A DNA stretch of 33,382 nucleotides from a virus (Duplodnaviria; Heunggongvirae; Uroviricota; Caudoviricetes), in IMG/VR virus record IMGVR_UViG_2874945390_000012; one strand, written 5' to 3'. Shown here piece after piece: positions 16,844 to 31,210 of this stretch. The notes beneath the pieces are model-generated. The model saw only the letters and a list, made by a program, of their open reading frames with translations, was not told where the DNA came from and did not search any database. Within the stretch, counting starts at the first letter, position 1, and every line of letters begins with the position of its first letter. Made by a program: the position numbers and the translations under genes.

Positions 16844-16850
16844 GTGTTAC

Positions 16851-17807
16851 TTACTCCTGTTTCGGTTTAGCGGCGAGGAACTCTTCCCCGGTAATACCCA
16901 TGCTGCGACACATCGCCAGTTCGGCATCGGTCAGTGTCTGCGCGGGTTTATCCTTGCCCTGGCTGGGCTTGTCGTTGTTAACCAGCGGCTGTGCACCTTT
17001 GGTGTACTCCGCAAACTGTTTGCGGCCTTCTTCCGTGCGGCAGGTGGCAAGGAACATGTCACGGTTTGCCGGGGCGACTTTTCCGGCCCCGATGGCCGCA
17101 TCCACAAGCGCCTCGGCTTCCTTCTCTTCCAGTTGCTGAAGGCGTTTTTCTGCGGTTTCGGCACGGTTCAGTGCCAGATTGTGGGTTTCCACCGGCACAA
17201 ACTTCGTCAGGTCAGGTGTCTGTGCGCGGTTCAGCGCCACCTGTTCGTTCTCCTGAAGTTGTTTAATGGCGGCCACGGTATCGTCCACCGTGGCGGATTC
17301 AGCCAGCCCAAGCAGGCCGGTGATTTGCACAGGTACTGTCATCGGGTTTTTCTCCGTATTCAGTGCAGGAAAATCCAGGTTAGGTTTGTTGGTCAGCCCG
17401 ACGCTGGACAGGCGCGTCACCGCACCGTCTGCGTCATGGAAAAACGCCGGGCTGTAATAGCGGTAGCGGCGCTCGCTCAGCATCCACCGGGCGGACTCAC
17501 TCCAGACAACACGCCCTTCAATGGTGCCGCTGTCCGTCACCCGCAGTGCTTCCACCCAGCCATACGCCGGAGCCTCTTCACCCCGCGGGCCTTTAATTTC
17601 GGTGGCATGTTCAATGTCCACCGGAATGTTGATGTCGGACGAACGGGCAACCACCTCATGTGGATTGCGGTTCATCCACGTCCGGCCATCGCGCCCGGTG
17701 AACTCACCCGCAGGAACGAGTTCAAGCCATTCCGGCAGTTGAGCGGGTGTCAGCTCAGGGATGGGTTCTGGCAGGGAAAAACACAGCGCCAGCAGTTCCG
17801 GTTGCAT
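16851..17807 (-). CDS. Head maturation protease/scaffold (Mu I-like)
   Basis: 318-aa ORF preceding the major capsid gene; Glu/Ala-rich coiled C-terminal half typical of I/Z scaffold; GGAG SD 8 nt upstream. Confidence 0.8.
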   Translation of the reverse strand: MQPELLALCFSLPEPIPELTPAQLPEWLELVPAGEFTGRDGRTWMNRNPHEVVARSSDINIPVDIEHATEIKGPRGEEAPAYGWVEALRVTDSGTIEGRVVWSESARWMLSERRYRYYSPAFFHDADGAVTRLSSVGLTNKPNLDFPALNTEKNPMTVPVQITGLLGLAESATVDDTVAAIKQLQENEQVALNRAQTPDLTKFVPVETHNLALNRAETAEKRLQQLEEKEAEALVDAAIGAGKVAPANRDMFLATCRTEEGRKQFAEYTKGAQPLVNNDKPSQGKDKPAQTLTDAELAMCRSMGITGEEFLAAKPKQE

Positions 17808-18021
17808 GTCAGTCTCCGTCGTCTGGGGTTACCGACGGTCAGTATGCGGAAGGCAGAAAAAAAGCCGGATTTACCGGCTTCACTGAAAACGGGGAAATAC
17901 CCCCTTCAAAACCCCTTCAAAAACGCCACAGACGCTTCAAAAAAGCCAGGGTGTACATTCATGCTATCAGAATAAAAAACGCGTTTCTGATGCGTTTCAG
18001 GGGTATTTACGGCGGGGTGGG
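17808..18021. promoter_or_regulatory. Central 214-bp non-coding island between F and I: terminators, repeats and the I-operon leader; candidate strong gyrase site
   Basis: No ORF in operon sense. Contains a terminator hairpin AAGCCGG-taaat-CCGGCTT plus T7 at 17857-17885, tandem TTTTGAAGGGG repeats, an AAACGCGTTT palindrome plus T-run, and a GGGGtatttCCCC hairpin. Confidence 0.6.
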
Positions 18022-18786: not shown

Positions 18787-20350
18787 GAGCAGTGTCTCCC
18801 AGCGCACGCGCCTTAAAGCACACCTCCGCCAGTTGCAGGGCAAAGTCGTCCGCGTTCAGCGTTTCCTGAAGCTCAGGCAGGCGTTTCAGAAAGTCATCAA
18901 AACTGTCGCACTCCTGCGCCAGTGTCAGCACCGGGTTCGTGAACGCCTCGCCGGTTTTCTGCCAGTCACGCAGGGCATCATCCACCATCTGTGCCAGTTC
19001 GTCGGGGTGTTCCCTGTTCAGGGCGACGCGCTCGCGGTTCATCGCCATATCACCCGGCATCCCGGCGGAAACCGGATGCAGAACATCAGCCCCTTCGTCT
19101 GGCTCAGCCAGGCCGAACCGGTCCCGCAGCTCCGATTCCTGAACCCGCATCCCCCGGTCAATCAGCGGCACCAGAGCATCCGTCAGCGCCTTCAGATCTT
19201 CGGCTTCACTGATACGCAGAACAACACGGGGGTAGTGCGCCTGTGGCCCGTAGTTGGCCTCGATGTAGGGCCGCACCAGATATTCATTCAGCGTGTTAGC
19301 CAGCTGTCGCGCGTCCCAGCGCACAATGTCCATGCGCACCTGATTGTGCACGTCCGCCTGTGAACGCGAACTGCCGTTATCCGTGGTCATGGTCTGCCCC
19401 AGCACAGCCTTACTGATTTGCGCATCGCACCATTCCGCCATTTCACGGAACAGTGCGCCGCCGTTATTCCGGCTAGCGGTTTCCTGCATCTCCAGTTGCA
19501 TGGACTGCGGAATGGCACACCCGGCATCCGAGGCAATGGAGGCAATCGCATCAATCAGCACGCGGATTTGCTCCTCCGTGGCGTTGGGACCGTATTTCCC
19601 CACCGTAACCGGAATGCCGAATTTTTCCGCAAATGCCCACCAGTCGCGCACGGTAAAGGATTTCAGCATGTACATCACAGCCACCAGACGGGCCAGACCG
19701 TTACGCAGCGGCAGACCGGATTTCAGACGCGGCTGGTGAACAATGAATTTTCCCGGTGTCAGCGGTACGCCATCCACCGGTTCATCGTCCGTCAGCAGGC
19801 GGAACTGGCGCAGCGTGGGCTTTTCGGCTTTCAGAAAACGGGGATCAACCCACTCATAATCACGGGGCATCCAGTGGTTGTTGCGGGTGTCCCACAGGAT
19901 TTCACAGACCGCCACGCCTTTTCCCAGCCCGTCGAGCAAATCAAACATCAGTTCGGGGATTTGCGGGGCTTCCATCAGCGCACGGATGGCGTCCGCCAGC
20001 TGCACGTCGGCATCGTCATCACTGGCGGCCACCACCACCGGTTCGATACCTGCCACTGTCAGCTTGCGGGTGCGCAGCACCGAGGCGTAATGCAAATCAC
20101 GTTCTTCCATCTCTTCGGCAAGGATAAAAAAATCACGCGTGATGCCGTCGGCGGCATTGCGCAGAATGCCTGCCAGCCTGCCGGGGTTCAGCCCGGAGGC
20201 GACGCTGATACCCGGCGAGGTCGGACGCACACCGGCATGACGCGGACGGGCCTGTGCTTCGTTGAGCGCCTCTTTTTTCAGCGTGTCTTCCTCACCGGTT
20301 GCCGGATTCAGCAGACGGCGAACGGCCCCGGCCAGTTGTTTCAGGTTCAC
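18779..20350 (-). CDS. Portal protein (Mu gp29/H-like)
   Basis: 523-aa ORF immediately after the terminase large subunit gene. Confidence 0.85.
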   Translation of the reverse strand: MNLKQLAGAVRRLLNPATGEEDTLKKEALNEAQARPRHAGVRPTSPGISVASGLNPGRLAGILRNAADGITRDFFILAEEMEERDLHYASVLRTRKLTVAGIEPVVVAASDDDADVQLADAIRALMEAPQIPELMFDLLDGLGKGVAVCEILWDTRNNHWMPRDYEWVDPRFLKAEKPTLRQFRLLTDDEPVDGVPLTPGKFIVHQPRLKSGLPLRNGLARLVAVMYMLKSFTVRDWWAFAEKFGIPVTVGKYGPNATEEQIRVLIDAIASIASDAGCAIPQSMQLEMQETASRNNGGALFREMAEWCDAQISKAVLGQTMTTDNGSSRSQADVHNQVRMDIVRWDARQLANTLNEYLVRPYIEANYGPQAHYPRVVLRISEAEDLKALTDALVPLIDRGMRVQESELRDRFGLAEPDEGADVLHPVSAGMPGDMAMNRERVALNREHPDELAQMVDDALRDWQKTGEAFTNPVLTLAQECDSFDDFLKRLPELQETLNADDFALQLAEVCFKARALGDTAHA

Positions 20351-21882
20351 AGTAAACCTCCCTCATTTTTCAGGCCGCGTGTCAGCTTCATCTGGCGGCG
20401 CGCGTTGCCTTCTTCCGGTTTCGCCGGGCGGTTCAGGCGGTGCAGCTCGTAACGGTGGCAGTCATCTTTACTGGCAAGGAAGCCCAGGAAAATAGCCACA
20501 GCGGCGTCGCCGTGACGCTTGCGGCCATCACTGCCTTTAGTACGGGCATCGTCAATACCGGGAACGCCACGCAGTAACTGAATGGCCCCGAGGTCATTGA
20601 TCACATCTTCATGCTTCGGAAGGATCAGCTCATCATCTTCAAACGCCGCACGGAAACGGGGCATGTTTTCGCGGTAGAACGCCACGGACAGCATCACCTG
20701 TTCCACCTCGTCGCCGTATCGTTCTGCCGCCTGTTCTGCCAGATACTGACCATTACCCCGCGCATCCATTTTGATACCGTCACGACGGGGCAGACGATCG
20801 CAAAGCCAGAACAGCACCTGCTCCTGCTGTTTAAACGGCACATTGGCAAGCTCAACCAGAAACGGCACCTCGCGGGTGGTGTCGTCGTTCACCGTCACCG
20901 GGGCCAGCACGGTCAGGTCACCCGAACGCGCAAAGTCTTCCCCCAGACAGTGGCGCAGATTCTTCGGGAGTTTTTCCAGCTCAGGGCGCACCACCGTTTC
21001 CAGCCATTCCCTGATCTCTGCCCGGCGCTGGCCTTCCGTCAGTGCGTTAAATTCCGGTGTGCCGGTAAAGCGCAACACTTTTCCGGTGCCACGGGCCGCA
21101 CGTTCACGCAGTGAGCGGGGGATATACGTGCCGCCGCCGTTTTTCGGGACGCAGTAATACTCCTCCAGCGCATCTTCGCGGGTGGCGGTATTTCGCAGCA
21201 GGCCTTCTTTCCATTCCACCTCGGCTTCCGGTGACCACACCATGCCGCGCACCTGACAGATACGCCGGTACAGCCCGTCATTACAGGCGTCATCCAGCGT
21301 GATGGTGTGAATACGGTAATCTTTTTTGCCCGCGCGGCTTTCCTGAATCAGCTGGTTAAACGGGTTGTCCACGCCGTCATGGGTGGAGATAAGGCGAACC
21401 TTACCGCCCCACGTGGTCAGTGGTGTGACCGCCTTGAGTACCTCATCCAGCTTTTCATGAAACGCCGCTTCGTCGATGGTGGCATTCCCCTGCATCCCGC
21501 GAATGTTGCCCGGATTACTGGACAGCGCCTTGACCTTAAATCCGCTGGCGAAGTACACGACGAACGTCAGAATGTCCTTGTCTTCGTCGGTGATCACTTC
21601 CTCGCGGATTTCTTCCGCGGCTGCATTAAACGCTTTTGCCCACATCGCCACGGCGTCGATAAATTCGCGGGCCATCTCCTTGTTCGAACCGATGTAAAAG
21701 TGATCGCGCCCGCCGTTTTCCTTCTTCAGTGATGCGGTCAGTGCCGCATCTGCCGCTTCCGCCCAGGTTAAACCGGTACGGCGGGATTTTTCGGCGATTT
21801 TCAGTTTTGAATCATCCGCCACCCAGCGTTTCTGATACGGCAGCAGAACATCGGATTCACTGAATGCGTTCATCTGTGTCAT
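20347..21882 (-). CDS. Terminase large subunit (Mu gp28-like)
   Basis: 511-aa ORF; size and position typical; overlaps neighbours by 4 nt. Confidence 0.85.
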   Translation of the reverse strand: MTQMNAFSESDVLLPYQKRWVADDSKLKIAEKSRRTGLTWAEAADAALTASLKKENGGRDHFYIGSNKEMAREFIDAVAMWAKAFNAAAEEIREEVITDEDKDILTFVVYFASGFKVKALSSNPGNIRGMQGNATIDEAAFHEKLDEVLKAVTPLTTWGGKVRLISTHDGVDNPFNQLIQESRAGKKDYRIHTITLDDACNDGLYRRICQVRGMVWSPEAEVEWKEGLLRNTATREDALEEYYCVPKNGGGTYIPRSLRERAARGTGKVLRFTGTPEFNALTEGQRRAEIREWLETVVRPELEKLPKNLRHCLGEDFARSGDLTVLAPVTVNDDTTREVPFLVELANVPFKQQEQVLFWLCDRLPRRDGIKMDARGNGQYLAEQAAERYGDEVEQVMLSVAFYRENMPRFRAAFEDDELILPKHEDVINDLGAIQLLRGVPGIDDARTKGSDGRKRHGDAAVAIFLGFLASKDDCHRYELHRLNRPAKPEEGNARRQMKLTRGLKNEGGLL

Positions 21883-22460
21883 ACACTAATCCCCAGAATT
21901 TCACGTTTGATGGTGTCAGCCGCACCGCCTGACAGACCGCCCGCTCTGACCAGCTCTTCGGTTTTCTCTGCCATTTCCTGCGCAAACGCATCGCGGATTG
22001 CTTTTTCGCGTTTATGGCTGGTCATGGCTGCCGCTTCCAGACGCTGGGCAACCAGCGCCAGTTGCCCCAGCGCCTTCGGTGCAACAGGTTTGTCGTCTTC
22101 TGTCATCGACATGGACGTTTCAAAGGCCAGCGTTTTTACAAACTCCATCAGCAGCCTGCCGACGTCTGACGTCGGCGCGGAACCCAGCTTTGCCGCCCAG
22201 ACTTCGGCCATTTCGCGGGAGGCACGGATTTTTGCCCCGACTTTTTCCATGCGGCTGGCATAGCGGTTTAAGCCCGTCCGGCTTAACTGCATCTCCCCCG
22301 GCAGGTTGTGTTCGTCAATCAGGGCATTGATGGCTTCGCGGATTTCTTCCTGCGTGTGCCGCTTTTCCCGCAGCATCTGGTGTAACTGCTCACGGATGCT
22401 GTCCGGGAGTAAATCCACTTTGGAAAGACGGCCACGGGTGGGGCGTTGTTCATTTTCCAT
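21879..22460 (-). CDS. Putative terminase small subunit (Mu gp27-like)
   Basis: 193-aa ORF immediately upstream of the large terminase gene; basic N-terminus. Confidence 0.6.
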   Translation of the reverse strand: MENEQRPTRGRLSKVDLLPDSIREQLHQMLREKRHTQEEIREAINALIDEHNLPGEMQLSRTGLNRYASRMEKVGAKIRASREMAEVWAAKLGSAPTSDVGRLLMEFVKTLAFETSMSMTEDDKPVAPKALGQLALVAQRLEAAAMTSHKREKAIRDAFAQEMAEKTEELVRAGGLSGGAADTIKREILGISV

Positions 22461-22737
22461 CTTCTGTCCTCTGTGTTTTCAGACCGGCGTATATTTCTTC
22501 ACGAACGGACTGAATATCCTTACCTGGCAGCTTCCACAGCCGCGCATATGCCGGTGATGAACGCAGGGCACGTTTCACGGGGGTATCCGGTGCATCCGGG
22601 TTCCAGGGCTTTCCGGTCTGTTGTTCGTATGCACGGACAATGGTGTTTTGCTCGATATCTGCCAGCACAAGGCAGTACGCCAGCTGCCGCACGACGGCCC
22701 GTTCTCCACGACTTAACGGCTTCAGTTTTCGGGCCAT
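22450..22737 (-). CDS. Hypothetical protein (Mu gp26-like by position)
   Basis: 95-aa ORF in operon context. Confidence 0.45.
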   Translation of the reverse strand: MARKLKPLSRGERAVVRQLAYCLVLADIEQNTIVRAYEQQTGKPWNPDAPDTPVKRALRSSPAYARLWKLPGKDIQSVREEIYAGLKTQRTEDGK

Positions 22738-22739
22738 GT

Positions 22740-23033
22740 TCAGTCCCTCGCACGGTTTTTTTTAACGCCCGGCACACCGGACAGGCCGTTTGCCACATCC
22801 TCGCCGCTGCCGGTGATTTCAGCCACGTAACAGCCGCCCACATCAGACAGACGAACCAGCCCCTGCTCGCGCAGCCATGCAAGCTGGGTGCGCACCACAT
22901 CACGGGATACCTTATGACCGTAGGCCTGAAGGCAGGTCTGCAACACGGATTCATTCGCGCTGTCGCCACAGTCCAGCAGGGAACGCAGCAACACCAGACG
23001 ACGGTCTTCAGTGAGGATCTCTTTCATCGCCAT
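22740..23033 (-). CDS. Hypothetical protein, possible winged-helix
   Basis: 97-aa ORF in operon context. Confidence 0.45.
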   Translation of the reverse strand: MAMKEILTEDRRLVLLRSLLDCGDSANESVLQTCLQAYGHKVSRDVVRTQLAWLREQGLVRLSDVGGCYVAEITGSGEDVANGLSGVPGVKKNRARD

Positions 23034-23338
23034 TATTTTTTTTCCTTTAATTCGTTCTCTAATAACAAATCGCTGATGCGGGATACCTGGCGGATGGATG
23101 GCCCCAGCTCTTTGATTTCACCCCGCAGGTTGCTGATATCCAGTTGCAGGCGGTGAAATTCATTGCGGTCGGGTAGCTGATTCACCAGGCCTTCCATCAC
23201 CGACACGCGGGAACGCAGCGAATCAAACTCTTCGCGTTTGACGTAAGTCTTCGCCAGAATCAGCTGAATCAGGTTTATTGCTGTCATCAACAGCGCCCAT
23301 AAAACAGGCCAGTTGGCCCGGATCACTTCCCAGGACAC
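23033..23338 (-). CDS. Membrane-anchored coiled-coil protein (i-spanin-like / DUF2730-like)
   Basis: N-terminal hydrophobic helix (WPVLWALLMTAINLIQLIL) followed by a coiled-coil-like region; lies in the lysis gene cluster. Confidence 0.5.
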   Translation of the reverse strand: MSWEVIRANWPVLWALLMTAINLIQLILAKTYVKREEFDSLRSRVSVMEGLVNQLPDRNEFHRLQLDISNLRGEIKELGPSIRQVSRISDLLLENELKEKK

Positions 23339-23550
23339 GTCTTCCTCCTGCGTTCCCGCGCCTGCTGGCAGTCAATACAGGTCACCACATCCGGCAGTAC
23401 CGCAATGCGCTGTGCCGGAATAACGTTACCGCAGTCATTGCAGAAGCCCCGACTGTGGGGTGCTTCTTTTATCCGCATCAGCCAGGCGTTAACGACGTCC
23501 TGACGTTCGTTTAAAACCACTTCACTGATGCGGTCGGTTTCATCGGTCAT
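23323..23550 (-). CDS. TraR/DksA-family C4 zinc-finger protein
   Basis: CNDCGNVIP...CIDCQ C4 motif near the C-terminus; 75 aa. Confidence 0.7.
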   Translation of the reverse strand: MTDETDRISEVVLNERQDVVNAWLMRIKEAPHSRGFCNDCGNVIPAQRIAVLPDVVTCIDCQQARERRRKTCPGK

Positions 23551-24155
23551 TTCGGCCCCGCTGATATTTTGTGACAGCTCGATTTGCTGTAACGGGCAAA
23601 GCCGTCAAGGGTTCTTACCCCGAGATAGCCCAGCGCCGGGGTAAACAACATCAGCGTGATATCCCAGTCCGGTGACGGCATATGCAGCGTGATACCGTTC
23701 GCACCGGCAACCGCACCGGCAATCTGGCCACAGGAGAGCAACAGCACATAGGCCAGACTGCTGTAACAGGACAGACGGGCCAGCAACGGGCGCGTCTGGC
23801 GCACATAGCTGTCCGTGGCGTTGTCACCGTTGCGGATGGTTTCCTGTTGTTCGTGGTGAGCGGCCTGCTGGTCAGCCAGCACCAGCTTCTGCCGCTCCAC
23901 CTCCAGCTGTTGCAGCTGGACTTTCAGGGTTTCCAGCTGCACCAGTTGCTCCGGTGACAGCATCACCAGTTTTTGTTCCAGAATGCGTTGCTGTTCAGCC
24001 ACCGGCAGGCTTTCCCGGACGCTTTCCACCATACCGGCCACCGAGTCAGCGGCGGCAGATGTGCTGCCACCAAACCAGCGCCCGACGGAACGAATCAGCC
24101 CCGGCCCGGCTTTCAGCAGAACGGAGGCGATGCCTGAAAGGGTTAACGGGTCCAT
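23547..24155 (-). CDS. Putative holin-like membrane protein (soluble coiled N-terminal part, hydrophobic C-terminal helices)
   Basis: 202-aa ORF; C-terminal hydrophobic segments (LLARLSCYSSLAYVLLLSCGQIAGAVAG; ITLMLFTPALGYLGV). Confidence 0.45.
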   Translation of the reverse strand: MDPLTLSGIASVLLKAGPGLIRSVGRWFGGSTSAAADSVAGMVESVRESLPVAEQQRILEQKLVMLSPEQLVQLETLKVQLQQLEVERQKLVLADQQAAHHEQQETIRNGDNATDSYVRQTRPLLARLSCYSSLAYVLLLSCGQIAGAVAGANGITLHMPSPDWDITLMLFTPALGYLGVRTLDGFARYSKSSCHKISAGPK

Positions 24156-24553
24156 GAATCCCCCTTATGAAAACGGCGCTGATGTTTATAAAGTGCCGCA
24201 CAAAAGATACCGCCCAGCCAGAACGCCAGCTGATAAGGCTCCTTCAGATAAAGAAGGCCGAATGTCAGCATGAAAAAACCAACGGCCCAGACCACCCATG
24301 ACCACACGACAATTCGAAGGGAGGCGGCCCGGAAACGCCTTTTGGGTTGCAGGCGATAAGGTACGTTGCCCAGCTGGAAACTGTGAATCAGGCAGAGTGT
24401 CGCGCCGTATGCCAGCACCATGACTCCAAACGCCTGCCATCCGGCAAAACAGCTCGCCAGAAAAAGGACTGCCGACAGCCCCAGAAACGACCACTGGCAC
24501 AACATAAAGCGGGAGTAAATAACGCGAACAAAAAGACTATTCATTCTGTACAT
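24143..24553 (-). CDS. Integral membrane protein (3-4 TM helices), lysis-associated candidate
   Basis: Starts at MYRMNSLF...; strongly hydrophobic segments; directly downstream of the endolysin region. Confidence 0.5.
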   Translation of the reverse strand: MYRMNSLFVRVIYSRFMLCQWSFLGLSAVLFLASCFAGWQAFGVMVLAYGATLCLIHSFQLGNVPYRLQPKRRFRAASLRIVVWSWVVWAVGFFMLTFGLLYLKEPYQLAFWLGGIFCAALYKHQRRFHKGDSWTR

Positions 24554-24764
24554 TGAGTTTTTCCTTGTACTTCTGGCACTGCCAGAAAATGTCCCGTGTA
24601 TCCACGGTGTTCCAGCCACGCATGTAGTGGCTGGCGTGTGTGCCGTCATGACCGGTATAGTCCAGCGGTTTCGGGGGCGGACCTCCGGCCATACGATGTA
24701 AAACCTCCTGACGCAGGCGGTCACGCCGCCCGGCTCTCAGCAAGGCATCCCAGCCTTTGCCCAT
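24537..24764 (-). CDS. Small hypothetical protein between the endolysin and the membrane protein
   Basis: 75-aa ORF starting 2 nt after the endolysin stop. Confidence 0.3.
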   Translation of the reverse strand: MGKGWDALLRAGRRDRLRQEVLHRMAGGPPPKPLDYTGHDGTHASHYMRGWNTVDTRDIFWQCQKYKEKLNVQNE

Positions 24765-24765
24765 A

Positions 24766-25353
24766 TCATCCCCGCGTGACGGACGACACGTTGTCGATAA
24801 TTTCCAGACAGGCGTCGGTCACTTTCTCCATGCGGTTAAACCAGCCGTTCAGGTATTTGCCCTGGGCAGGTTTGGATTTGATGATGTCGGCATAAAAGCG
24901 GGAACGACGGACAATGCAGCGGGTCAGCAACCAGTCCGGGGTGGACAGGCTCACTGCCTTACGGGTACGCGGACCGATGATGCCGTCAGCATCCACATCA
25001 GCGGCTTCCTGCAAAATCCTGATAGCTTTTTTAACGCCATGCTGAACCGCCGCATCGAACACAAACATCGCCACGCCATCAGGCCACTGGTCACATCCGG
25101 CAGGCAGCCAGTAATCGCGCCAGTAAATCTGCGCGACCTGTTCGCGGGTTAAATCCCTGATGCGGGTATCCGGTTTACCGTCGCCGCTGACATCGGTTTT
25201 GCCGTCAATCACACCGTCGCGGCGGTCAGAAATGCCGTATCTGGTTTCGCCGCCACGGTCAGTGGGGTCATTGACATAGACGCCTTCGATATCGGGACGC
25301 AGAATAAAATTCAGCGCATGTTCAAAGGCCGGGGAGAATTTCAGATTTTCCAT
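24766..25353 (-). CDS. Endolysin, GH108-type muramidase with a C-terminal peptidoglycan-binding domain
   Basis: Motifs TDRGGETRYGI and DGIIGPRTR; 195 aa; first gene after the Mor/C gene and terminator; SD AGGTG upstream. Confidence 0.8.
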   Translation of the reverse strand: MENLKFSPAFEHALNFILRPDIEGVYVNDPTDRGGETRYGISDRRDGVIDGKTDVSGDGKPDTRIRDLTREQVAQIYWRDYWLPAGCDQWPDGVAMFVFDAAVQHGVKKAIRILQEAADVDADGIIGPRTRKAVSLSTPDWLLTRCIVRRSRFYADIIKSKPAQGKYLNGWFNRMEKVTDACLEIIDNVSSVTRG

Positions 25354-25410
25354 AAAAGCACCTGTGAAGCAGAGTTAAACGTGGTCTGCTTCATGGTGCC
25401 GGAGGCATAA

Positions 25411-25436
25411 AAAAAGCCGGATTTACCGGCTTCATT
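25411..25436 (-). terminator. Rho-independent terminator after the Mor/C-like gene
   Basis: Minus-strand sense TGAAGCCGGTAAATCCGGCTTTTTTT: 7-bp stem, 5-nt loop, T7; identical to the element at 17857-17885. Confidence 0.65.
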
Positions 25437-25438
25437 GA

Positions 25439-25888
25439 TTAAGGACGTCGTGGCGGACGACGAACGGGGTGAGGCAGGTTCGGGGAGTGGTAAAACAAAT
25501 CCGGCTGGTATTTATTACACTCCAGACGCCGCATCCGTTTGATGGCCTTGTAGACGGTTTTATACGTCACCCCGTAACGCTGAACCAGTTCAGGAATATT
25601 ATGGCCGTTAAAATCACGCCAGATACGCATATCCCGGACAAGATTCTCCAGAATATTCCCCCTCGGAACATAAACCTGCATCCCGCCGATATGGCGACAA
25701 ATCGCCACAACCAGCTCAAGGGAATGAGCAGGGTCTGCGCCAATCCGGGCCAGCTCTTTACGCAGCAGTGCGTTCAGTTCAGAAAGTAACGCCGGATAAG
25801 CCGTGTTTTCCTGGTAATCGTTAAGGTATTCCAGAACGCTGTCGTCCCGGAAGTCTTCGAATAAATCCTGCTCTTTCATCTGTTTCAT
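25439..25888 (-). CDS. mor: Mor/C-family transcriptional activator (closest to Mu Mor)
   Basis: ...DPAHSLELVVAICRHIGGMQVYVPRGNILENLVRDMRIWRDFNGHNIPELVQRYGVTYKTVYKAIKRMRRL closely matches the Mu Mor C-terminal HTH region as I recall it. Confidence 0.85.
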   Translation of the reverse strand: MKQMKEQDLFEDFRDDSVLEYLNDYQENTAYPALLSELNALLRKELARIGADPAHSLELVVAICRHIGGMQVYVPRGNILENLVRDMRIWRDFNGHNIPELVQRYGVTYKTVYKAIKRMRRLECNKYQPDLFYHSPNLPHPVRRPPRRP

Positions 25889-25939: not shown

Positions 25940-26434
25940 TCATAGCCGCGCAGCTCCTGCCCGGTTTCGCTCACAGGTAAAGGCACACCATGTCGGGCAA
26001 AGGCTCACGGATGCAGCGCATATGCCACTGTTTGAGCGTTTCGAGCACAACCTGCAACGATTCCCGTGACACCAGGCCAGCGTGGAAACACCCTGACCGC
26101 CATTACGTCTGGCTGTCAGGCGTTCAACGTATTTGTCCAGCGCAGCGTCGCTGATATCGGAGACGAAACCATCAAGGAACATCTGCTGCCAGATTTTATA
26201 AATCTTCTCGCGCGGTGTGACATGCCCCTTAAAGCGACGGCGGGGATGTTTTTTCTGCTTCTTAAAACCGCGCTCTTTCATGGCATCGAGCACACGTTCC
26301 AGTTGTGCAACGGAAAGCTCGCGGCAACTGGTTTTGCCCGTGCACTGCACCAGAAAGGTGCGGTAAGTGTCATCGTCGAGTTGCAGGTCACGACGGGCAA
26401 CATGAATTAATTTAATCAGGGATGTGCGGCTCAT
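25940..26434 (-). CDS. gemA: GemA-like protein (Mu gp16 family); C-terminal ~50 aa possibly out of frame
   Basis: N-terminus MSRTSLIKLIHVARRDLQLDDDTYRTFLVQCTGKTSCRELSVAQLERVLDAMKERGFKK is GemA-like; the C-terminal segment is Cys/Arg-rich and atypical, while an alternative frame reads protein-like. Confidence 0.7.
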   Translation of the reverse strand: MSRTSLIKLIHVARRDLQLDDDTYRTFLVQCTGKTSCRELSVAQLERVLDAMKERGFKKQKKHPRRRFKGHVTPREKIYKIWQQMFLDGFVSDISDAALDKYVERLTARRNGGQGVSTLAWCHGNRCRLCSKRSNSGICAASVSLCPTWCAFTCERNRAGAARL

Positions 26435-26747
26435 TATGTCCCCCCGGATTTAAAATTAATTCGGTGTTGAATAGCTCTTTACTCATTCGATGTAGCACAT
26501 CGAGGGCGGCAACTGCCGCTACTTTATCCTGGCTGGCAATGATTTTTCGTAATTCCTCAATAATCCAGGCTGGACTTAATGATTCGGCAATCATCGTGCG
26601 TTTTTCTGAAATTAAATTTTCTCTGGCCTGCTCATAGCGTTGGTATACGACATTATCCAGAAAATCATTTACCTTTTGTTCTGACATGCCACTGGAAATT
26701 AAGGTTGCAGCCATTAAATCAGCATCAGTAATCATCTGTATTTTCAT
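26412..26747 (-). CDS. Hypothetical early protein
   Basis: 111-aa ORF in the early operon; coupled overlaps with neighbours. Confidence 0.5.
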   Translation of the reverse strand: MKIQMITDADLMAATLISSGMSEQKVNDFLDNVVYQRYEQARENLISEKRTMIAESLSPAWIIEELRKIIASQDKVAAVAALDVLHRMSKELFNTELILNPGGHNEPHIPD

Positions 26748-27087
26748 CTCTTAATACCTTTTCTGGATTCAGGAAAACTGCGCCGGTAACCTCCAGCAGA
26801 TTCACCAGAGCATGGGTCGCAATTGCTGCAGCCAGGCAATCACCGTTGTAGCAGGCATTGTCGATAACGCTTTTTATTATTCTTATCAGCGATGGCAGTG
26901 TGGTGTTTTCCAGAATTTCCAGCCTGAACTGCTTCAGCCAGTATTCATATTCAGCTTCATCAAATGGACGCTCACCCATCAGTTCCGTCAGTGTTGCATC
27001 GGCCTGCTCTGGCGTATATCCACTGACAACCAGTTGCGCCCGCATTTCAGCCCGATATTTCGGGTCGTCATAAATACGTTTACTCAT
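26725..27087 (-). CDS. Hypothetical early protein
   Basis: 120-aa ORF in the early operon. Confidence 0.5.
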   Translation of the reverse strand: MSKRIYDDPKYRAEMRAQLVVSGYTPEQADATLTELMGERPFDEAEYEYWLKQFRLEILENTTLPSLIRIIKSVIDNACYNGDCLAAAIATHALVNLLEVTGAVFLNPEKVLRDENTDDY

Positions 27088-27262
27088 TTCTTAATGCATC
27101 CTCACAATAAAAGATTTCACCGGAATAACGTTTTTGTATGCGCTCCATCACCTGCATACATGCCTGCTCTGTGGGCCAGATTTTTTCTGTTACAGGTATG
27201 GCATCGCAGGCATCATTCCCACAGGTGCCAACCAGCAGGACAAAGCCAATTGACTTAATCAT
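27080..27262 (-). CDS. Small Cys-rich exported protein, possible lipoprotein
   Basis: MIKSIGFVLLVGTCGNDACDAIPV...: N-terminal signal-like hydrophobic segment ending in Cys, four further Cys; ATG at 27262 overlaps the upstream stop by 8 nt. Confidence 0.5.
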   Translation of the reverse strand: MIKSIGFVLLVGTCGNDACDAIPVTEKIWPTEQACMQVMERIQKRYSGEIFYCEDALRNE

Positions 27263-27794
27263 GCCCGCTGATTTCCTGTGTTTCCGCCGGAACCGGTGAA
27301 TAATCAAGAATGAGATAGCGCAGGACGTGGTCGGTGATATTCCAGCCACTGGAGCCACAAATAAAACGACCCAGCCGGATATCGATATACGCCATCACAA
27401 AACGGGGCATTCCCTGTTTGCACATCTCGTCATCCACTTCAGCAACGATGTAAACCGGCTCGCAGGTCAGTACGCCTGTCGCAAATTCTTTTGCCAGTGC
27501 CGGAATGGCGTTACCTTCCAGCCAGGGCAAAGAACGACGGAACGTGCACCATGCAGCATCATCAACCCCTGGCAGCTCCGTTGTGTTTCGCCTTACAGGT
27601 GACGTCAGACGAGGGCGCGGAACGTCATAAAATCCGTTGCATTCGGTGAGCACTCCGGCATCAACCGCATCACGCAGGAAATACACCATTGACGAGGGCA
27701 GCATATTCATTTTTTCAGCCAGAACCCCGCAGGTCAGACGCCCGTAAGCCCGTAATAATGTGCTGACACCGTTCAGAACTTTTGCATCAATCAC
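27255..27794 (-). CDS. Hypothetical early protein
   Basis: 179-aa ORF in the early operon. Confidence 0.5.
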   Translation of the reverse strand: MIDAKVLNGVSTLLRAYGRLTCGVLAEKMNMLPSSMVYFLRDAVDAGVLTECNGFYDVPRPRLTSPVRRNTTELPGVDDAAWCTFRRSLPWLEGNAIPALAKEFATGVLTCEPVYIVAEVDDEMCKQGMPRFVMAYIDIRLGRFICGSSGWNITDHVLRYLILDYSPVPAETQEISGHD

Positions 27795-27797
27795 CGG

Positions 27798-28352
27798 TTA
27801 TTCCTCCGTCAGTGCCACAAATTCAGAATGTTTAATGCGCTGGCATTCGGCAGGAACCGGTCCCTTAACCTCACCATCCAGCAGGCACACCTCAAACAAA
27901 ATGCCGAATCCGTCACGGCTGTGGTGCATCGTCCAGACTGATTTGAGATCAAACATGTTGGGTACAACATCAACCCCGAGTTCATTACACAACCAGACCG
28001 GGAATGTGGGATATTTCCGGAGTTGCTCTTCATGTTCCTGAATAAGCGTCGCATTGTTTCGGCCTTCCGGTGTTGTTATATCCGGTACAACGCCATAAAA
28101 CTGAAATCCACCAATAAACAGTCCGTCTGATTTACCACGCCATAATTCCGGCGCTAATTGATTCATCCAGATACATTCAACCCGTTCATACCCTCTGTTA
28201 CTGACAAGGGAAACACCGTCTGCGCCAAACGCACGCTGCAATGAGCAGATGATTTTGTCACGCTTAACAGAAACATCTTTCAGCCAGCGAATCGTATAAC
28301 CGTTAGCGGCTGCGTCACTCAGTTTAAAATAAGCATATGCTTTCATATTCAT
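27798..28352 (-). CDS. Hypothetical early protein
   Basis: ORF starting MNMKAYAYF... with SD GGAAA upstream; ~185 aa. Confidence 0.5.
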   Translation of the reverse strand: MNMKAYAYFKLSDAAANGYTIRWLKDVSVKRDKIICSLQRAFGADGVSLVSNRGYERVECIWMNQLAPELWRGKSDGLFIGGFQFYGVVPDITTPEGRNNATLIQEHEEQLRKYPTFPVWLCNELGVDVVPNMFDLKSVWTMHHSRDGFGILFEVCLLDGEVKGPVPAECQRIKHSEFVALTEE

Positions 28353-28443
28353 TTCCTCTGGTCCTGATTCAGGCGCGAGCAATCCCCTGACGCATCGCGC
28401 CATAATTAAAAGAAAGTGAATTAATTAAATATTCGTCGTGGTA

Positions 28444-28968
28444 TTAAATACCGGCTTCCTGTTCAAACGGAATAATAGAAAAATCTTCAATGCCTGATTT
28501 AACTGTAATTCCGGCGACACCTGCGACTGCTTTCGGCTCCAGTAAAATCGCTTCCTTGTTGATTTCCTGTTTCGTGCGAATAAAGCGTTGAAGGCCAAGA
28601 CGCTCCAGTGTTTCCATCACTGCATCCACACCGCGAATACTTACTGATGGTGGGCGCTGACGCCATGACACATCACCGGTTACCAGGTTTGCCGTCTTCA
28701 CCTTGCCGCCGTTCGTCAGTTCGTCACGGTTCGCTTCACACCATCCCTGAACGCCTTTTGAAAGGGTTTCGATACTGGTTTTAAGCGGTGCAATCTGTGA
28801 GGCGTATTTCTCCGTAATCTCAGCGATAGCGTCATTCATTTCCGTTTCAAGTCGTGCTGCTTCGCGTTGCAGGTCCCCAATCCGGCGGATATCACATACC
28901 ACGGCATCGCGGGATTGCGGAACATAAGCCGCTGCGGCGTTCCTGATTCGTTTTGCGGGTTTAGCCAT
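28444..28968 (-). CDS. gam: Gam, host-nuclease inhibitor (Ku-like DNA end-binding protein)
   Basis: 174 aa; MAKPAKRIRNAAAAYVPQSRDAV...GVQGWCEANRDELTNGGKVKTANLVTGDVSWR...SGIEDFSIIPFEQEAGI closely resembles Mu Gam as I recall it. Confidence 0.9.
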   Translation of the reverse strand: MAKPAKRIRNAAAAYVPQSRDAVVCDIRRIGDLQREAARLETEMNDAIAEITEKYASQIAPLKTSIETLSKGVQGWCEANRDELTNGGKVKTANLVTGDVSWRQRPPSVSIRGVDAVMETLERLGLQRFIRTKQEINKEAILLEPKAVAGVAGITVKSGIEDFSIIPFEQEAGI

Positions 28969-28986
28969 AAATAAAGCTCCTGTTAA

Positions 28987-29286
28987 TTAATATTCACTGT
29001 ATACAATGCCGGATACAGCACGATTGCTTAATTCCATCTTTTTGGCTATCACATGAATAGCCAGCCCTTCTTTATAAAGTTCACGGCATAAATATTTGTC
29101 GTGCTCACTGACCCGGTATGCACACAACGATATTCCGTGCCTTCTGGCATGTGCCTGTAGGGCGGTTGGGGCAACTTTCAGTTTTTTCGCCATTTCCTCG
29201 ACGGTCATTTTTCCGACACTGGCTTCGATAAATTCCCGGTCTTCGCGTGACCAGCGTTTACGATTACACGTCATTCCGGTCACCAC
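28987..29286 (-). CDS. Putative DNA-binding protein with two HTH-like segments
   Basis: RWSREDREFIEASVGKMTVEEMAKKLKVAPTALQAHARRHGIS and GLAIHVIAKKMELSNRAVSGIV look like helix-turn-helix motifs; 99 aa. Confidence 0.45.
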   Translation of the reverse strand: MVTGMTCNRKRWSREDREFIEASVGKMTVEEMAKKLKVAPTALQAHARRHGISLCAYRVSEHDKYLCRELYKEGLAIHVIAKKMELSNRAVSGIVYSEY

Positions 29287-29706
29287 TCAGTACAACAGAG
29301 GCTCGCGCAGTGATGCCGGAATATGCCGCAGCGATAACTGAACCGCTTTTAGGACAAGCGAGGAATAACAGCAGCGCGCCCAGCCTTTTGCCATTAACCG
29401 GTAATCGCGCCAGATACGCTGCCACATTTCACGGGCTTTCGGGTCTGACGCGCAGATGTATTCGCGGTCCATGACGTATTCCCATAAATCCACATTGAAG
29501 GCATTGCCAAACGTAATGGCGCGGAATACCGCCTCTCCGCAATAACGCGCACAAATGCTGTAATGGTCAAATGCAATCAGGTAAGTCTTTTCGCCATACC
29601 CCTCAACTTCGCGCGCACAAATAAATTCGCGCAAGTCTCCACCATTGTTATTACGCTCTTTAATCCGAATTAATGCCCGGATTTCATTTCGGATTTTGAC
29701 GTTCAT
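29287..29706 (-). CDS. Hypothetical early protein
   Basis: ORF from MNVKIRNEIRAL...; SD AAGGAA 9 nt upstream of the ATG at 29706. Confidence 0.5.
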   Translation of the reverse strand: MNVKIRNEIRALIRIKERNNNGGDLREFICAREVEGYGEKTYLIAFDHYSICARYCGEAVFRAITFGNAFNVDLWEYVMDREYICASDPKAREMWQRIWRDYRLMAKGWARCCYSSLVLKAVQLSLRHIPASLREPLLY

Positions 29707-29720
29707 TGTCAGCGTTCCTT

Positions 29721-29999
29721 TCAGTGGCATGTTTTTTCAACAGCCATTTCAGTGACACGGCCACCGGTGATGACACTATCGTTTTTCAAAATCTCGATAG
29801 CTTCATGGGCTGACTCATTAATTATTTTCTGGCTTTTATTAAGCACCAGTAACGCCACCATGCCAGCAAGTGTACCCTCATCACCGTCCAGTTCCGCACT
29901 ACCGTCCACCGCAATGCTGGTGCGCAAATTCAGTCCTTTAATTCCAGATACTGTATTTTTAATTTCAATAATTACTTTTGCCATTTTGTTATTCCTCAC
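29721..29999 (-). CDS. Hypothetical early protein
   Basis: 92-aa ORF (alternative start at MAKVII, 29984). Confidence 0.45.
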   Translation of the reverse strand: MRNNKMAKVIIEIKNTVSGIKGLNLRTSIAVDGSAELDGDEGTLAGMVALLVLNKSQKIINESAHEAIEILKNDSVITGGRVTEMAVEKTCH

Positions 30000-30016
30000 A
30001 AATAAATAAGCCGTTA

Positions 30017-30244
30017 TTAACGCCAGATAATCTGGCAGCCATTAAGGCGGGCCGTCCATACTGAACGGGCAACCCCTGATTTATGCTCCATAATCCTGAC
30101 AGCGTTTCTGACCAGCTCCGGTGGTGGGCAGGTGATTTCAAGTACCGGACGCGCCACGCCGAGATATGATTCATTTACGTGACTCCCGTGCGCCTGTAAC
30201 CAGTTCTGCGCATCCGTTGCCATTTTTATATTTCGTGACATCAT
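30017..30244 (-). CDS. Small hypothetical early protein (kil-region position)
   Basis: 75-aa ORF immediately downstream of B. Confidence 0.4.
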
Positions 30245-30259
30245 GGTTTATGTCCTTTA

Positions 30260-31210
30260 CTACCAGTTCAGTAACCTGGGGTTGCTGTAAGCCTCCTTAA
30301 AAGCCGCTTTAATGTGACTTTTATTCAGGGATGTGCCTGCACCTTTTGCCGCCAGCCACGCATGATTCAGTGTGTGAGTTAATACACGCAATCCCCCGGG
30401 CTTTTCGGCTACCCTCATCAGCAGGTCCAGCTCATCTTCCTGTGTTACTCCCCATGCTTTGGCTACAGCCATCACATCGGTCTTTTTTACTTTGCGCAGT
30501 TGTTTTGTCATGGCAAAACGGCTGAACAGACGGGCCAGTTCATCAGTCCCACGACGGGTGGCATCCGCCATCTGTTTCGGGTTGCCAATTAAAACCATCC
30601 CCACGCCAGTGGCATCCTGAATGGCGCGTAATTGCTCCAGACCATCCACACTTAAGTGATCAGCTTCATCAATAATCAGAAGGGGGTTAACACGGCCACT
30701 GGTTTCTTTACCACCACCCAGTTTTCTGCGAATGGCGCGGGTTATATTCCCCTTATTTCTTCCCGGATTATTAATTTCCAGCGCATATGCTATTTCAAGG
30801 AGGCATTCCGTTACGCTCGAATGTGCCGGAGCAAGAGTCACCATCCAGGCATTAGCTGTCCTGCGACAATATTCCCGGGCAGCAAAGGTTTTTCCGACAC
30901 CCGGTACTCCAACAACGACACTGATAATCCCGAGTGAGCGCACTGTTTTAAACAGCTCATGCAAATCACAAAATGTCTGGGTCTTCACAACACCAGGGGT
31001 ACCTGACAAGTTCTGTCCCTTCTGCCAGACCTGATACCATTTCTGTAATTTGTCATGCATACCTTCGACATTACCGTTGTACTCTCCTTTACGCAGAGCC
31101 GAGAGTGTTGCCGGAGACATTCCGGCTTCATCAGCAATATCTTCCTGAGACTTGTCGCCCTCGTTAATCAAAGCGTTAATAGTGTTGAAAACATCATCAA
31201 TATCAGTCAT
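30260..31210 (-). CDS. B: MuB-like AAA+ ATPase, target DNA activator
   Basis: 316 aa; N-terminal HTH-like region, Walker A VVGVPGVGKTF, Walker B LLIIDEADHL; directly downstream of the transposase. Confidence 0.9.
   Translation of the reverse strand: MTDIDDVFNTINALINEGDKSQEDIADEAGMSPATLSALRKGEYNGNVEGMHDKLQKWYQVWQKGQNLSGTPGVVKTQTFCDLHELFKTVRSLGIISVVVGVPGVGKTFAAREYCRRTANAWMVTLAPAHSSVTECLLEIAYALEINNPGRNKGNITRAIRRKLGGGKETSGRVNPLLIIDEADHLSVDGLEQLRAIQDATGVGMVLIGNPKQMADATRRGTDELARLFSRFAMTKQLRKVKKTDVMAVAKAWGVTQEDELDLLMRVAEKPGGLRVLTHTLNHAWLAAKGAGTSLNKSHIKAAFKEAYSNPRLLNW

What the first reader, a model, noticed from the sequence alone, without database searches (positions are those of the whole stretch)
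25439..25888. Only one Mor/C-family activator; no separate C gene between mor and lys
In Mu, Mor activates the middle promoter driving C, and C activates the late promoters; C lies just upstream of lys. Here the Mor-like gene is followed directly by a terminator and then the endolysin, and no second Mor/C-like ORF appears anywhere in the window. The regulatory cascade may be shortened, with one activator serving the late promoters, or C may be encoded elsewhere.
Basis: partly seen in the sequence, partly recalled or inferred. Interest (0 to 1): 0.5.

Follow-up and report, generated by a model that had tools for sequence, protein, structure and literature searches.

The report
Single Mor activator, reiterated late promoters
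This Mu-like E. coli prophage has only one Mor/C-type activator gene, and copies of that activator's likely binding site sit in front of both the lysis/packaging genes and the head genes, so it probably runs a two-step cascade, a design that turns out to be common rather than exceptional.

Summary
Window 25439-25888 (-) encodes a 149-aa Mor ortholog. It matches Pfam Mor at 106 bits and is 62% identical to Mu Mor. Six-frame searches with Mu Mor, Mu C and a Mor+C profile find no second family member. In a 99%-identical E. coli prophage, only ner and the repressor lie beyond the window.

The "terminator" after mor is homologous to Mu's middle promoter Pm, and 14 of its 16 box positions match the Mor-binding element. 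A second copy (38/42 nt) lies 7.5 kb downstream, in front of the head protease gene I, where Mu has its C-dependent promoter PI.

In IMG/VR contigs, 54 of 54 single-activator phages carry two such boxes. All 14 Mu-type phages that have C carry only the Pm box. The mom promoter shows the same split: a C box when C is present and a different conserved sequence when it is absent.

The window's Mor also carries MuC's C-terminal clamp-binding motif QPDLF.

Best reading: one activator drives the late operons directly. The absence of C in other Mu-like phages is already published; the reiterated box appears not to be. Nothing here is tested experimentally, and control of mom is unresolved. Interest is moderate.

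The parts
25439..25888 (-). mor: the only Mor/C-family activator gene (149 aa). It has N-terminal EQDLF and C-terminal QPDLF (residues 128-132), followed by a 17-aa Pro/Arg-rich tail.
   Evidence: Pfam PF08765 at 106 bits. 1RR7 at E=5.5e-52. The only six-frame hit. Motifs.
25397..25438 (-). Copy 1 of the 42-nt repeat: TCAATGAAGCCGGTAAATCCGGCTTTTTTTATGCCTCCGGCA. It is homologous to Mu Pm and the early terminator t9.2.
   Evidence: Longest direct repeat in the window, 38/42 identical to copy 2. An exact 25-mer occurs twice, with 0 expected by chance. Comparison with Mu Pm.
25421..25436 (-). Predicted Mor box 1, AATGAAGCCGGTAAAT. It corresponds to Mu Pm positions -51..-36 (AGTAAAGCCGGTTAAT).
   Evidence: Mu numbering was fixed with -57G and -54A from PMC4390567.
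25413..25433 (-). Terminator-like hairpin (8 pairs, 5-nt loop) followed by a run of seven T. It overlaps box 1 and is the probable end of the early operon.
   Evidence: dG -12.6 kcal/mol.
25393..25398 (-). -10-like hexamer CACCAT, 22 nt after box 1. This is the same spacing as TATCCT in Mu Pm. There is no -35.
   Evidence: Relatives have CAAAAT, CACTAT or CAATAT at the same spacing.
25365..25393 (-). 5'-proximal stem-loop of the predicted lys-operon transcript (TGAAGCAGA..TCTGCTTCA).
   Evidence: A stem-loop sits at this position in all relatives, each with a different sequence.
24766..25353 (-). GH108 + PG_binding_3 endolysin, the first gene of the predicted Mor-dependent operon.
   Evidence: PHROG endolysin.
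24537..24764 (-). Homolog of Mu gp18 (E18), the first gene of Mu's middle operon. Here it lies in the same operon as the lysis and packaging genes.
   Evidence: 64% identity over 72 aa, E=6e-32.
17845..17886 (-). Copy 2 of the 42-nt repeat, in the F-I intergenic region, at the position of Mu PI.
17869..17884 (-). Predicted Mor box 2, AGTGAAGCCGGTAAAT.
   Evidence: Conserved at this position in 11 genome loci and 54 of 54 single-activator viral contigs.
17841..17846 (-). -10-like hexamer CATACT, 22 nt after box 2. It aligns with the -10 region of Mu PI (CCGCA[A/T]ACTGAC).
16851..17807 (-). Head protease/scaffold gene I, the first gene downstream of box 2.
   Evidence: tblastn to Mu I and relatives. 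Annotated 'phage protease' in VL40.
6988..7006 (-). Candidate third, weaker Mor box (CAGGGAAAACGGTAAATCT) inside the gp45-like baseplate gene, with TATTAT 23 nt downstream (6961-6966). It is a possible analog of Mu PP.
   Evidence: PWM score 20.9; the next-best non-box site scores 9.8. A hit at the same place in Kp4866-3 scores 16.9. Third-codon-position conservation is 0.98 against a gene mean of 0.84. The coding constraint confounds this.

Best explanation
The prophage probably runs a two-tier lytic cascade instead of Mu's three-tier one.

mor is the last gene of the early operon, and its product is the only Mor/C-family activator. I infer that it binds a 16-bp box at about -51..-36 of promoters that have a -10 but no -35.

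That box occurs at least twice. The first copy is immediately after mor. There it overlaps the early terminator hairpin exactly as in Mu Pm, and it would drive GH108 lysin, the gp18 homolog, lysis genes, terminase, portal and F. The second copy lies between F and I and would drive the head operon and probably the tail genes.

A weaker third box inside the gp45-like gene may boost the baseplate and fibre genes. The activator also carries MuC's C-terminal clamp-binding motif QPDLF. It may therefore couple late transcription to replication, as MuC does.

Shown here: a single family member, the reiterated box, its conservation, and its anticorrelation with C. Inferred: binding, activation, operon extents and clamp dependence.
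For: (1) There is one Mor/C homolog in six frames and none in the flank of a 99% relative.

(2) The region after mor is homologous to Mu Pm. The box matches 14 of 16 positions, and the T-run and box-to--10 spacing are the same. The Mu element was located from PMC4390567.

(3) Unbiased repeat searches find a 42-nt second copy before gene I in the window. They find the same in Raoultella, Klebsiella, Kluyvera and Brenneria prophages.

(4) In the P-I copies of L007, L008, L010 and Kp4866-3, the right hairpin arm and T-run decay. The left arm plus loop, which is the Mor element, stays conserved. Selection there is therefore not only for a terminator.

(5) The T(A/T)AAT variant is the same in both copies in 11 of 11 genomes.

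(6) In IMG/VR contigs, 54 of 54 single-activator loci have two boxes and 14 of 14 loci with C have one. Fisher p=4e-13 on unique mor sequences.

(7) Mu PI and the window's P-I share the -10 and downstream sequence but differ in the upstream box.

(8) Pmom carries TTAT-N6-ATAA only in phages that have C. No such C box precedes any late gene in the window.

(9) The recognition helix is nearly identical to Mu Mor's. QPDLF is present, as in MuC (PMC12867686).
Against: No binding, transcript or reporter data exist for this phage.

The C-versus-box correlation is largely clade against clade, so the p-value overstates independence.

The box overlaps a good intrinsic terminator. Some P-I copies keep the hairpin through compensatory changes (L014, L005), so terminator function is also under selection and could explain part of the conservation.

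The -10 elements are weak (CACCAT, CATACT).

No Mor box lies upstream of com-mom, so at least one late promoter is unexplained.

The third box lies in coding sequence. It does not follow the TTAAT variant of the other two boxes in Kp4866-3.

In the Vibrionaceae relative tested (L019), the two upstream regions share no motif.
Confidence: 0.75

Rival explanations
1. The repeated element is only a duplicated intrinsic terminator that closes the early operon and the lysis/packaging operon. Late genes would then be expressed by read-through or from promoters controlled by something else.
For: Both copies score as terminators: 8-bp stem, 5 GC pairs and a T-run. Compensatory changes keep the hairpin in the P-I copies of L014 and L005.
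Against: In L008, L010, L007 and Kp4866-3 the right arm and U-tract of the P-I copy are degraded, yet the left arm plus loop is conserved. The repeat extends 12 nt beyond the T-run to a -10-like hexamer at the same spacing as in Mu Pm. The homologous Mu sequence is the experimentally defined Mor site (PMC4390567). The second copy is absent exactly where C exists.
Confidence: 0.1
2. A non-homologous protein replaces C as late activator. Candidates are the TraR/DksA-like zinc-finger protein (23323-23550), the D5-like HTH protein (28987-29286) or an uncharacterised small ORF. Mor would then only turn on the first operon.
For: A DksA/TraR-family protein is encoded in the first Mor-box operon. Several small ORFs have no known function. 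The conserved, non-Mor sequence at Pmom in C-less phages needs some factor.
Against: The P-I promoter carries a full Mor box, not a different motif. From my own knowledge, not tested here, TraR/DksA proteins act through the RNA polymerase secondary channel rather than as site-specific activators. The D5-like protein is also present in Mu (87% identical gp9), and Mu still needs C.
Confidence: 0.08
3. C has simply been lost from a decaying prophage or is supplied in trans from elsewhere in the host genome. On this view the element is not a functional two-tier phage.
For: The window shows several frameshifts relative to close relatives, in gemA, the gene at 13970-14579 and gp45/46.
Against: The frameshifts are single-base deletions in homopolymer runs, which is typical of sequencing error. 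The same C-less layout occurs in 60 viral contigs, 13 genome loci and the complete genome of Klebsiella phage Kp4866-3. It also occurs in inducible Pasteurellaceae phages (PMC4553209).
Confidence: 0.04

Closest known systems
Bacteriophage Mu Mor and its middle promoter Pm (PDB 1RR7; Mor-TAC 9L0Y)
   Same: The gene is syntenic with Mu mor: it follows gemA and is the last early gene. The protein is 62% identical, with the same beta-strand linker and a nearly identical recognition helix. The box after mor matches Mu's at 14 of 16 positions, overlaps the early terminator, and has the same T-run and the same 22-nt distance to the -10.
   Different: In Mu the box occurs once and drives a middle operon whose key product is C. 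Here it occurs at least twice and directly precedes late genes. The protein ends in QPDLF plus a 17-aa tail where Mu Mor has QPSLL.
Bacteriophage Mu C (late activator; C-TAC 9L0X)
   Same: The inferred job is the same: activating the lysis and head operons from promoters that lack a -35, at about -43.5. The C-terminal clamp-binding motif QPDLF is shared. The P-I core promoter is orthologous to Mu PI (PMC12867686).
   Different: Identity to C is only 32%. No C gene is present. No TTAT-N5-6-ATAA box precedes the lys, I or mom genes in the window.
C-less Mu-like phages of Pasteurellaceae (Mannheimia 3927AP2, phiMhaMu2, Haemophilus parasuis SuMu)
   Same: In these phages mor is followed directly by a GH108/PG_binding_3 lysin and no C gene is present, as stated in PMC4553209.
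   Different: Those papers report the absence of C and call for experiments, but propose no mechanism. The window phage has a Mu-type early region (82-97% aa identity for kil, gp7, gp8, gp9, gp11 and gemA) and a com-mom module, which 3927AP2 lacks.
Yersinia phage vB_YpM_5/6 (Muvirus)
   Same: It has Pm followed directly by a homolog of the window's GH108 gene.
   Different: It still carries C and the Mu-type lysin further downstream, and it has only one Mor box. It looks like a recombinant between the two lineages with the junction at Pm.

Membership tests
[quoted passage not shown] | Profile match above the curated threshold, and sequence similarity to solved Mor and C | tested here: met
   106.1 bits against a cut-off of 24.9. 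1RR7 at E=5.5e-52 and MuC 9L0X at E=7.5e-14.
[quoted passage not shown] | Small protein (about 100-150 aa) with an acidic N-terminal half and a basic C-terminal half (PMC2582627) | tested here: met
   149 aa. Residues 1-66 have net charge -6 and residues 67-149 have net charge +10.
[quoted passage not shown] | Invariant beta-strand linker residues GG..Y.P.G between the dimerisation and HTH domains (PMC2582627) | tested here: met
   G68, G69, Y73, P75 and G77 are invariant in the 13-sequence alignment.
[quoted passage not shown] | C-terminal helix-turn-helix | tested here: met
   HTH_28 and HTH_23 sub-threshold matches at residues 94-121. The region aligns to the Mor HTH with a nearly identical recognition helix.
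[quoted passage not shown] | Binds a 16-bp imperfect dyad centred near -43.5 of a promoter that has a -10 but no -35 | not testable with these tools
   Only the predicted sites can be shown. The boxes at 25421-25436 and 17869-17884 lie 22 nt upstream of -10-like hexamers. No sigma-70 consensus promoter lies upstream of lys or I.
[quoted passage not shown] | Clamp-binding motifs: N-terminal Qx[D/E][L/M]F and/or C-terminal QPDLF (PMC12867686) | tested here: met
   EQDLF at residues 6-10 (a partial match, as in Mu Mor) and QPDLF at residues 128-132 (an exact match to MuC). Clamp binding itself was not tested.
Mu-type three-tier cascade (Mor -> C -> late promoters) | A second family member, C, encoded in a middle operon downstream of Pm | tested here: not met
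   No second hit in six frames of the window. None in a close relative's flank.
Mu-type three-tier cascade (Mor -> C -> late promoters) | [quoted passage not shown] | tested here: not met
   The window has only two pattern matches, at 185-197 and 30081-30093, and neither is upstream of a late gene. Pmom in C-less phages has a different conserved sequence.
Mu-type three-tier cascade (Mor -> C -> late promoters) | A Pm-type Mor box overlapping the early terminator just after mor | tested here: met
C-less (two-tier) Mu-like phages | mor followed directly by a GH108/PG_binding_3 lysin, with no C | tested here: met
   The description for 3927AP2, phiMhaMu2 and SuMu is in PMC4553209.
C-less (two-tier) Mu-like phages | A Mor box reiterated in front of the head protease gene (a feature defined here, not in the literature) | tested here: met
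   Present in the window, 11 genome loci and Kp4866-3 and 54 of 54 viral contigs.

The most novel reading that the evidence does not exclude
Mu's textbook three-step cascade may be a lineage-specific elaboration. On this reading, the prevalent and possibly ancestral design among Mor-carrying transposable phages is a two-step cascade. One clamp-binding Mor-type activator fires a reiterated terminator/promoter cassette. The Muvirus lineage then gained a second, divergent family member (C), and the activator boxes at Plys, PI, PP and Pmom were replaced together while the core promoters were kept.
Probability: 0.45. Interest if true: 0.55.

Novelty: new variant of a known kind. Interest (0 to 1): 0.42.

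Why it matters
Mu is the reference model for Mor/C activators, and structural and clamp-coupling work appeared in 2025-2026. If a single Mor ortholog drives late operons from Pm-type boxes, it gives a natural one-protein system for asking three questions. What distinguishes a 'middle' from a 'late' activator? Is the C-terminal clamp-binding motif the late-specific feature? How are promoters rewired when a paralog is gained? The orthologous core promoters with swapped upstream boxes bear directly on that last question.

It also answers, at the level of a testable prediction, the question left open for C-less Mu-like phages in PMC4553209. And it offers a simple annotation rule for late promoters in this prophage group, which my similarity search matched in 56 of 5426 complete E. 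coli genomes.

Tried and rejected
- A Mor box at com-mom. Mismatch and PWM scans find nothing upstream of com. A TAAAT half-site does sit 23 nt from a TATCCT hexamer, but the left half and spacer do not match, so I did not count it.
- C-type boxes in the window. TTAT-N5-6-ATAA occurs twice, and neither copy is at a late gene.
- Vibrionaceae relatives. In L019 the regions upstream of GH108 and of I share no significant motif; the local alignment score equals the shuffled mean. The reiterated-box model is therefore only demonstrated for the enterobacterial group.
- Other activator candidates. Pfam and PHROG scans of the small ORFs between B and terL show no second activator family. They find only a DksA/TraR zinc finger and a D5-like HTH that Mu also has.
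- My first reading of 6654-7373 as an intact 239-aa protein, based, was wrong. Twenty-seven relatives end at 178 aa.
- Artsimovitch & Howe 1996 (PMC145667), which defines the Mor site, is not held. I placed the element from the description in PMC4390567 and checked the numbering with -57G and -54A.
- Literature searches found no paper describing a reiterated Mor box. That search covers only the held library.

Full report
**What is there**

The window is a Mu-like prophage on the minus strand. In order it carries transposase A (31286-33382), B, kil, gam, gemA (25940-26434), mor (25439-25888), a GH108 endolysin (24766-25353), lysis and packaging genes, portal, F, the head protease I (16851-17807), the major head gene T, tail genes, and com-mom (mom 240-977).

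The ORF at 25439-25888 matches Pfam Mor (PF08765) at 106 bits against a cut-off of 24.9. It matches the Mor crystal structure 1RR7 at E=5.5e-52 and MuC at E=7.5e-14. It is 62% identical to Mu Mor and about 32% identical to Mu C.

**Is it the only one?**

I translated every stop-to-stop segment of at least 25 aa in six frames, 751 segments in all. phmmer with Mu Mor, Mu C and the window protein hits only this ORF, and all other segments have E>1. A profile built from 13 Mor orthologs plus Mu C gives the same result.

A 99%-identical prophage in E. coli VL40 shows only a ner-like gene and a repressor beyond A, followed by host cusS.

**What the 'terminator' really is**

The 85-nt gap after mor reads TCAATGAAGCCGGTAAATCCGGCTTTTTTTATGCCTCCGGCACCATG on the coding strand. 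At the same position Mu has ACAGTAAAGCCGGTTAATCCGGCTTTTTTTACGTCCTCAATATCCTG, which is its middle promoter Pm overlapping the early terminator.

PMC4390567 describes the Mor site as a 16-bp element centred at -43.5. It consists of two 5-bp inverted repeats around a G/C-rich hexamer, and the footprint spans -56 to -33. I set +1 at Mu 9224, because this makes -57 a G and -54 an A, as that paper states. The element is then AGTAAAGCCGGTTAAT. The window has AATGAAGCCGGTAAAT at the equivalent place, followed after 22 nt by a -10-like CACCAT. The scan tool also calls the hairpin plus T-run a terminator.

**The second copy**

An unbiased repeat search returns, as the longest direct repeat of the window, a 42-nt pair at 25397-25438 and 17845-17886, identical at 38 of 42 positions. 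The exact 25-mer occurs twice where none is expected by chance.

The second copy lies in the F-I intergenic region, 22 nt upstream of CATACT and about 60 nt upstream of the I start. Mu has only one copy of the box. At the corresponding place Mu has its C-dependent promoter PI.

Aligning Mu PI with the window and seven relatives shows a shared -10 and downstream sequence (CCGCA[A/T]ACTGAC) but different sequence where the activator box lies.

**Relatives**

Thirteen genome loci with at least 3.8 kb on either side of mor each contain one Mor/C homolog. They come from Pluralibacter, Raoultella, Klebsiella, Serratia, Kluyvera, Brenneria, Photobacterium and Thaumasiovibrio. The complete genome of Klebsiella phage Kp4866-3 also has one. 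Only Mu and Yersinia phage vB_YpM_5 have two.

Gene order is conserved from gemA and mor through GH108 to I and T in 12 of the 13; the Thaumasiovibrio locus showed no GH108, terminase or portal match.

Repeat searches in these loci independently recover the same pair of boxes. In 11 enterobacterial genomes the box [CA(A/G)(T/G)GAA(G/A)(C/G)CGGT(A/T)AATCC] occurs upstream of GH108 and upstream of I, with -10-like hexamers 22-23 nt after it.

Two details argue for a protein-binding site rather than only a terminator. First, in several P-I copies (L007, L008, L010, Kp4866-3) the right hairpin arm and the T-run are degraded, while the left arm and loop, which form the Mor element, are kept. Second, the TAAAT/TTAAT variant is the same in both copies in 11 of 11 genomes.

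Against this, L014 and L005 keep the hairpin through compensatory changes. Terminator function, or perfect dyad symmetry, is therefore probably also selected.

**The key comparison**

I examined 80 IMG/VR contigs carrying a Mor relative. Sixty have one Mor/C gene. Twenty have two, with C lying 0.3-1.4 kb downstream of mor.

| Loci with at least 9.9 kb downstream of mor | Two boxes | One box (Pm only) |
|---|---|---|
| Single activator (54) | 54 | 0 |
| Two activators (14) | 0 | 14 |

In the single-activator loci the second box lies a median 7.7 kb after the first. On unique mor sequences the split is 51/0 against 0/12, Fisher p=4e-13. This is largely a contrast between clades, so the p-value is not phylogenetically corrected. 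The single-activator group does, however, span Mor identities from 61% to 99%.

The com-mom module gives an independent echo. Mom is about 95% identical between the two groups. Yet the activator region of Pmom is TTAT-N6-ATAA in every contig that has C, and TGATTAAATACCCCCAGCCCTCCGGGC in all but one of the C-less contigs checked (L177 differs).

**Protein features**

The recognition helix (YKTVYKAIKRMRR) differs from Mu Mor's (FNTVYKAIRRMRR) at three positions, which is consistent with the nearly identical box.

The C-terminus reads QPDLF, identical to the C-terminal clamp-binding motif that PMC12867686 shows to be needed for clamp-stimulated late transcription by MuC. Mu Mor has QPSLL there.

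Among unique single activators sampled, 39 of about 60 have QxxLF at this position. The motif is therefore frequent but not universal.

**Interpretation**

The most economical reading is a two-tier cascade in which early transcription makes Mor and Mor activates P-lys and P-I directly. Mu's middle-operon gene E18 has a homolog (24537-24764, 64% identity) inside the first Mor-box operon. In this phage, then, the 'middle' and 'lys' operons are one.

A third, weaker box lies inside the gp45-like gene (7006-6988, PWM 20.9, with TATTAT 23 nt downstream). It recurs at the same place in Kp4866-3. It also coincides with the highest third-codon-position conservation in the gene (0.98 against a mean of 0.84). 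It could be the analog of Mu PP, but coding constraint makes this only suggestive.

**What remains open**

Nothing here is functional evidence. No Mor box precedes com-mom, so control of mom in C-less phages is unexplained. The Vibrionaceae relative tested shows no shared motif. The direction of evolution, whether C was gained in Muvirus or lost elsewhere, is not resolved.

**Novelty**

The absence of C and the direct mor-lys adjacency were already noted for Mannheimia and Haemophilus parasuis Mu-like phages, with a call for experiments (PMC4553209). I found no paper in the held library that describes the reiterated Mor box or its anticorrelation with C.

I therefore rate this a new variant of a known kind. 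It is of moderate interest: unsurprising to a Mu specialist in outline, but specific and directly testable.

Noticed in passing
window ~26005 and ~26063 (gemA); ~14206 and ~14290 (gene 13970-14579); 6654-7373 (gp45/gp46); 7364-8349 (P-like): Relative to the 99%-identical VL40 prophage, the window lacks single bases in homopolymer runs (AAA, CCC, CCCC), and this splits or extends ORFs. gp45 ends at 178 aa in 27 relatives but runs on to 240 aa here. The pattern looks like sequencing or assembly error rather than prophage decay.
   Followed up: partly
window 17890-17960 (-), F-I intergenic region: Three phased TTTTTGAAG / TTTTAAAC-type repeats align with the region around Mu's annotated strong gyrase cut site (Mu 17879/17880) and with the same intergenic region of five relatives. 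This is a candidate strong-gyrase-site homolog just upstream of Mor box 2.
   Followed up: partly
window 25365-25393 (-) and 17816-17838 (-): A stem-loop starts right at or after the -10 of each Mor-box promoter. In eight and seven relatives respectively, a stem-loop sits at the same position with an unrelated sequence. It may be a 5'-terminal mRNA stabiliser or a regulatory hairpin.
   Followed up: partly
window 1040-1200 (-), upstream of com: The Dam/OxyR-type GATC cluster is conserved with Mu. The C box is replaced by TGATTAAATACCCCCAGCCCTCCGGGC, which is conserved in most C-less phages. CCCCCAG also pairs with CTGGGGG at the com ribosome-binding site. The activator of mom here is unknown.
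   Followed up: partly
L002 (Yersinia phage vB_YpM_5) 2200-3600: This Muvirus has Pm followed by a homolog of the window's GH108 gene, then a small ORF, then C, then the Mu-type lysin. That suggests recombination between the two lineages at the shared Pm cassette.
   Followed up: no
window 25439-25492 (-), Mor residues 133-149: A 17-aa Pro/Arg-rich C-terminal tail (YHSPNLPHPVRRPPRRP) follows QPDLF. It is found only in the E. coli/Salmonella subgroup of Mor orthologs. Its function is unknown. The 2025 preprint 10.1101/2025.05.02.651988 assigns the termini of Mor/C a role in tetramer stabilisation.
   Followed up: no
window 26440-31210 versus 15900-25350: The genome is mosaic. Early genes kil, gp7, gp8, gp9, gp11 and gemA are 82-97% identical in protein to Mu. 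Late genes are only 28-60% identical and follow the GH108/TraR/DUF2730 lineage seen in Klebsiella, Raoultella, Serratia and Brenneria prophages.
   Followed up: partly
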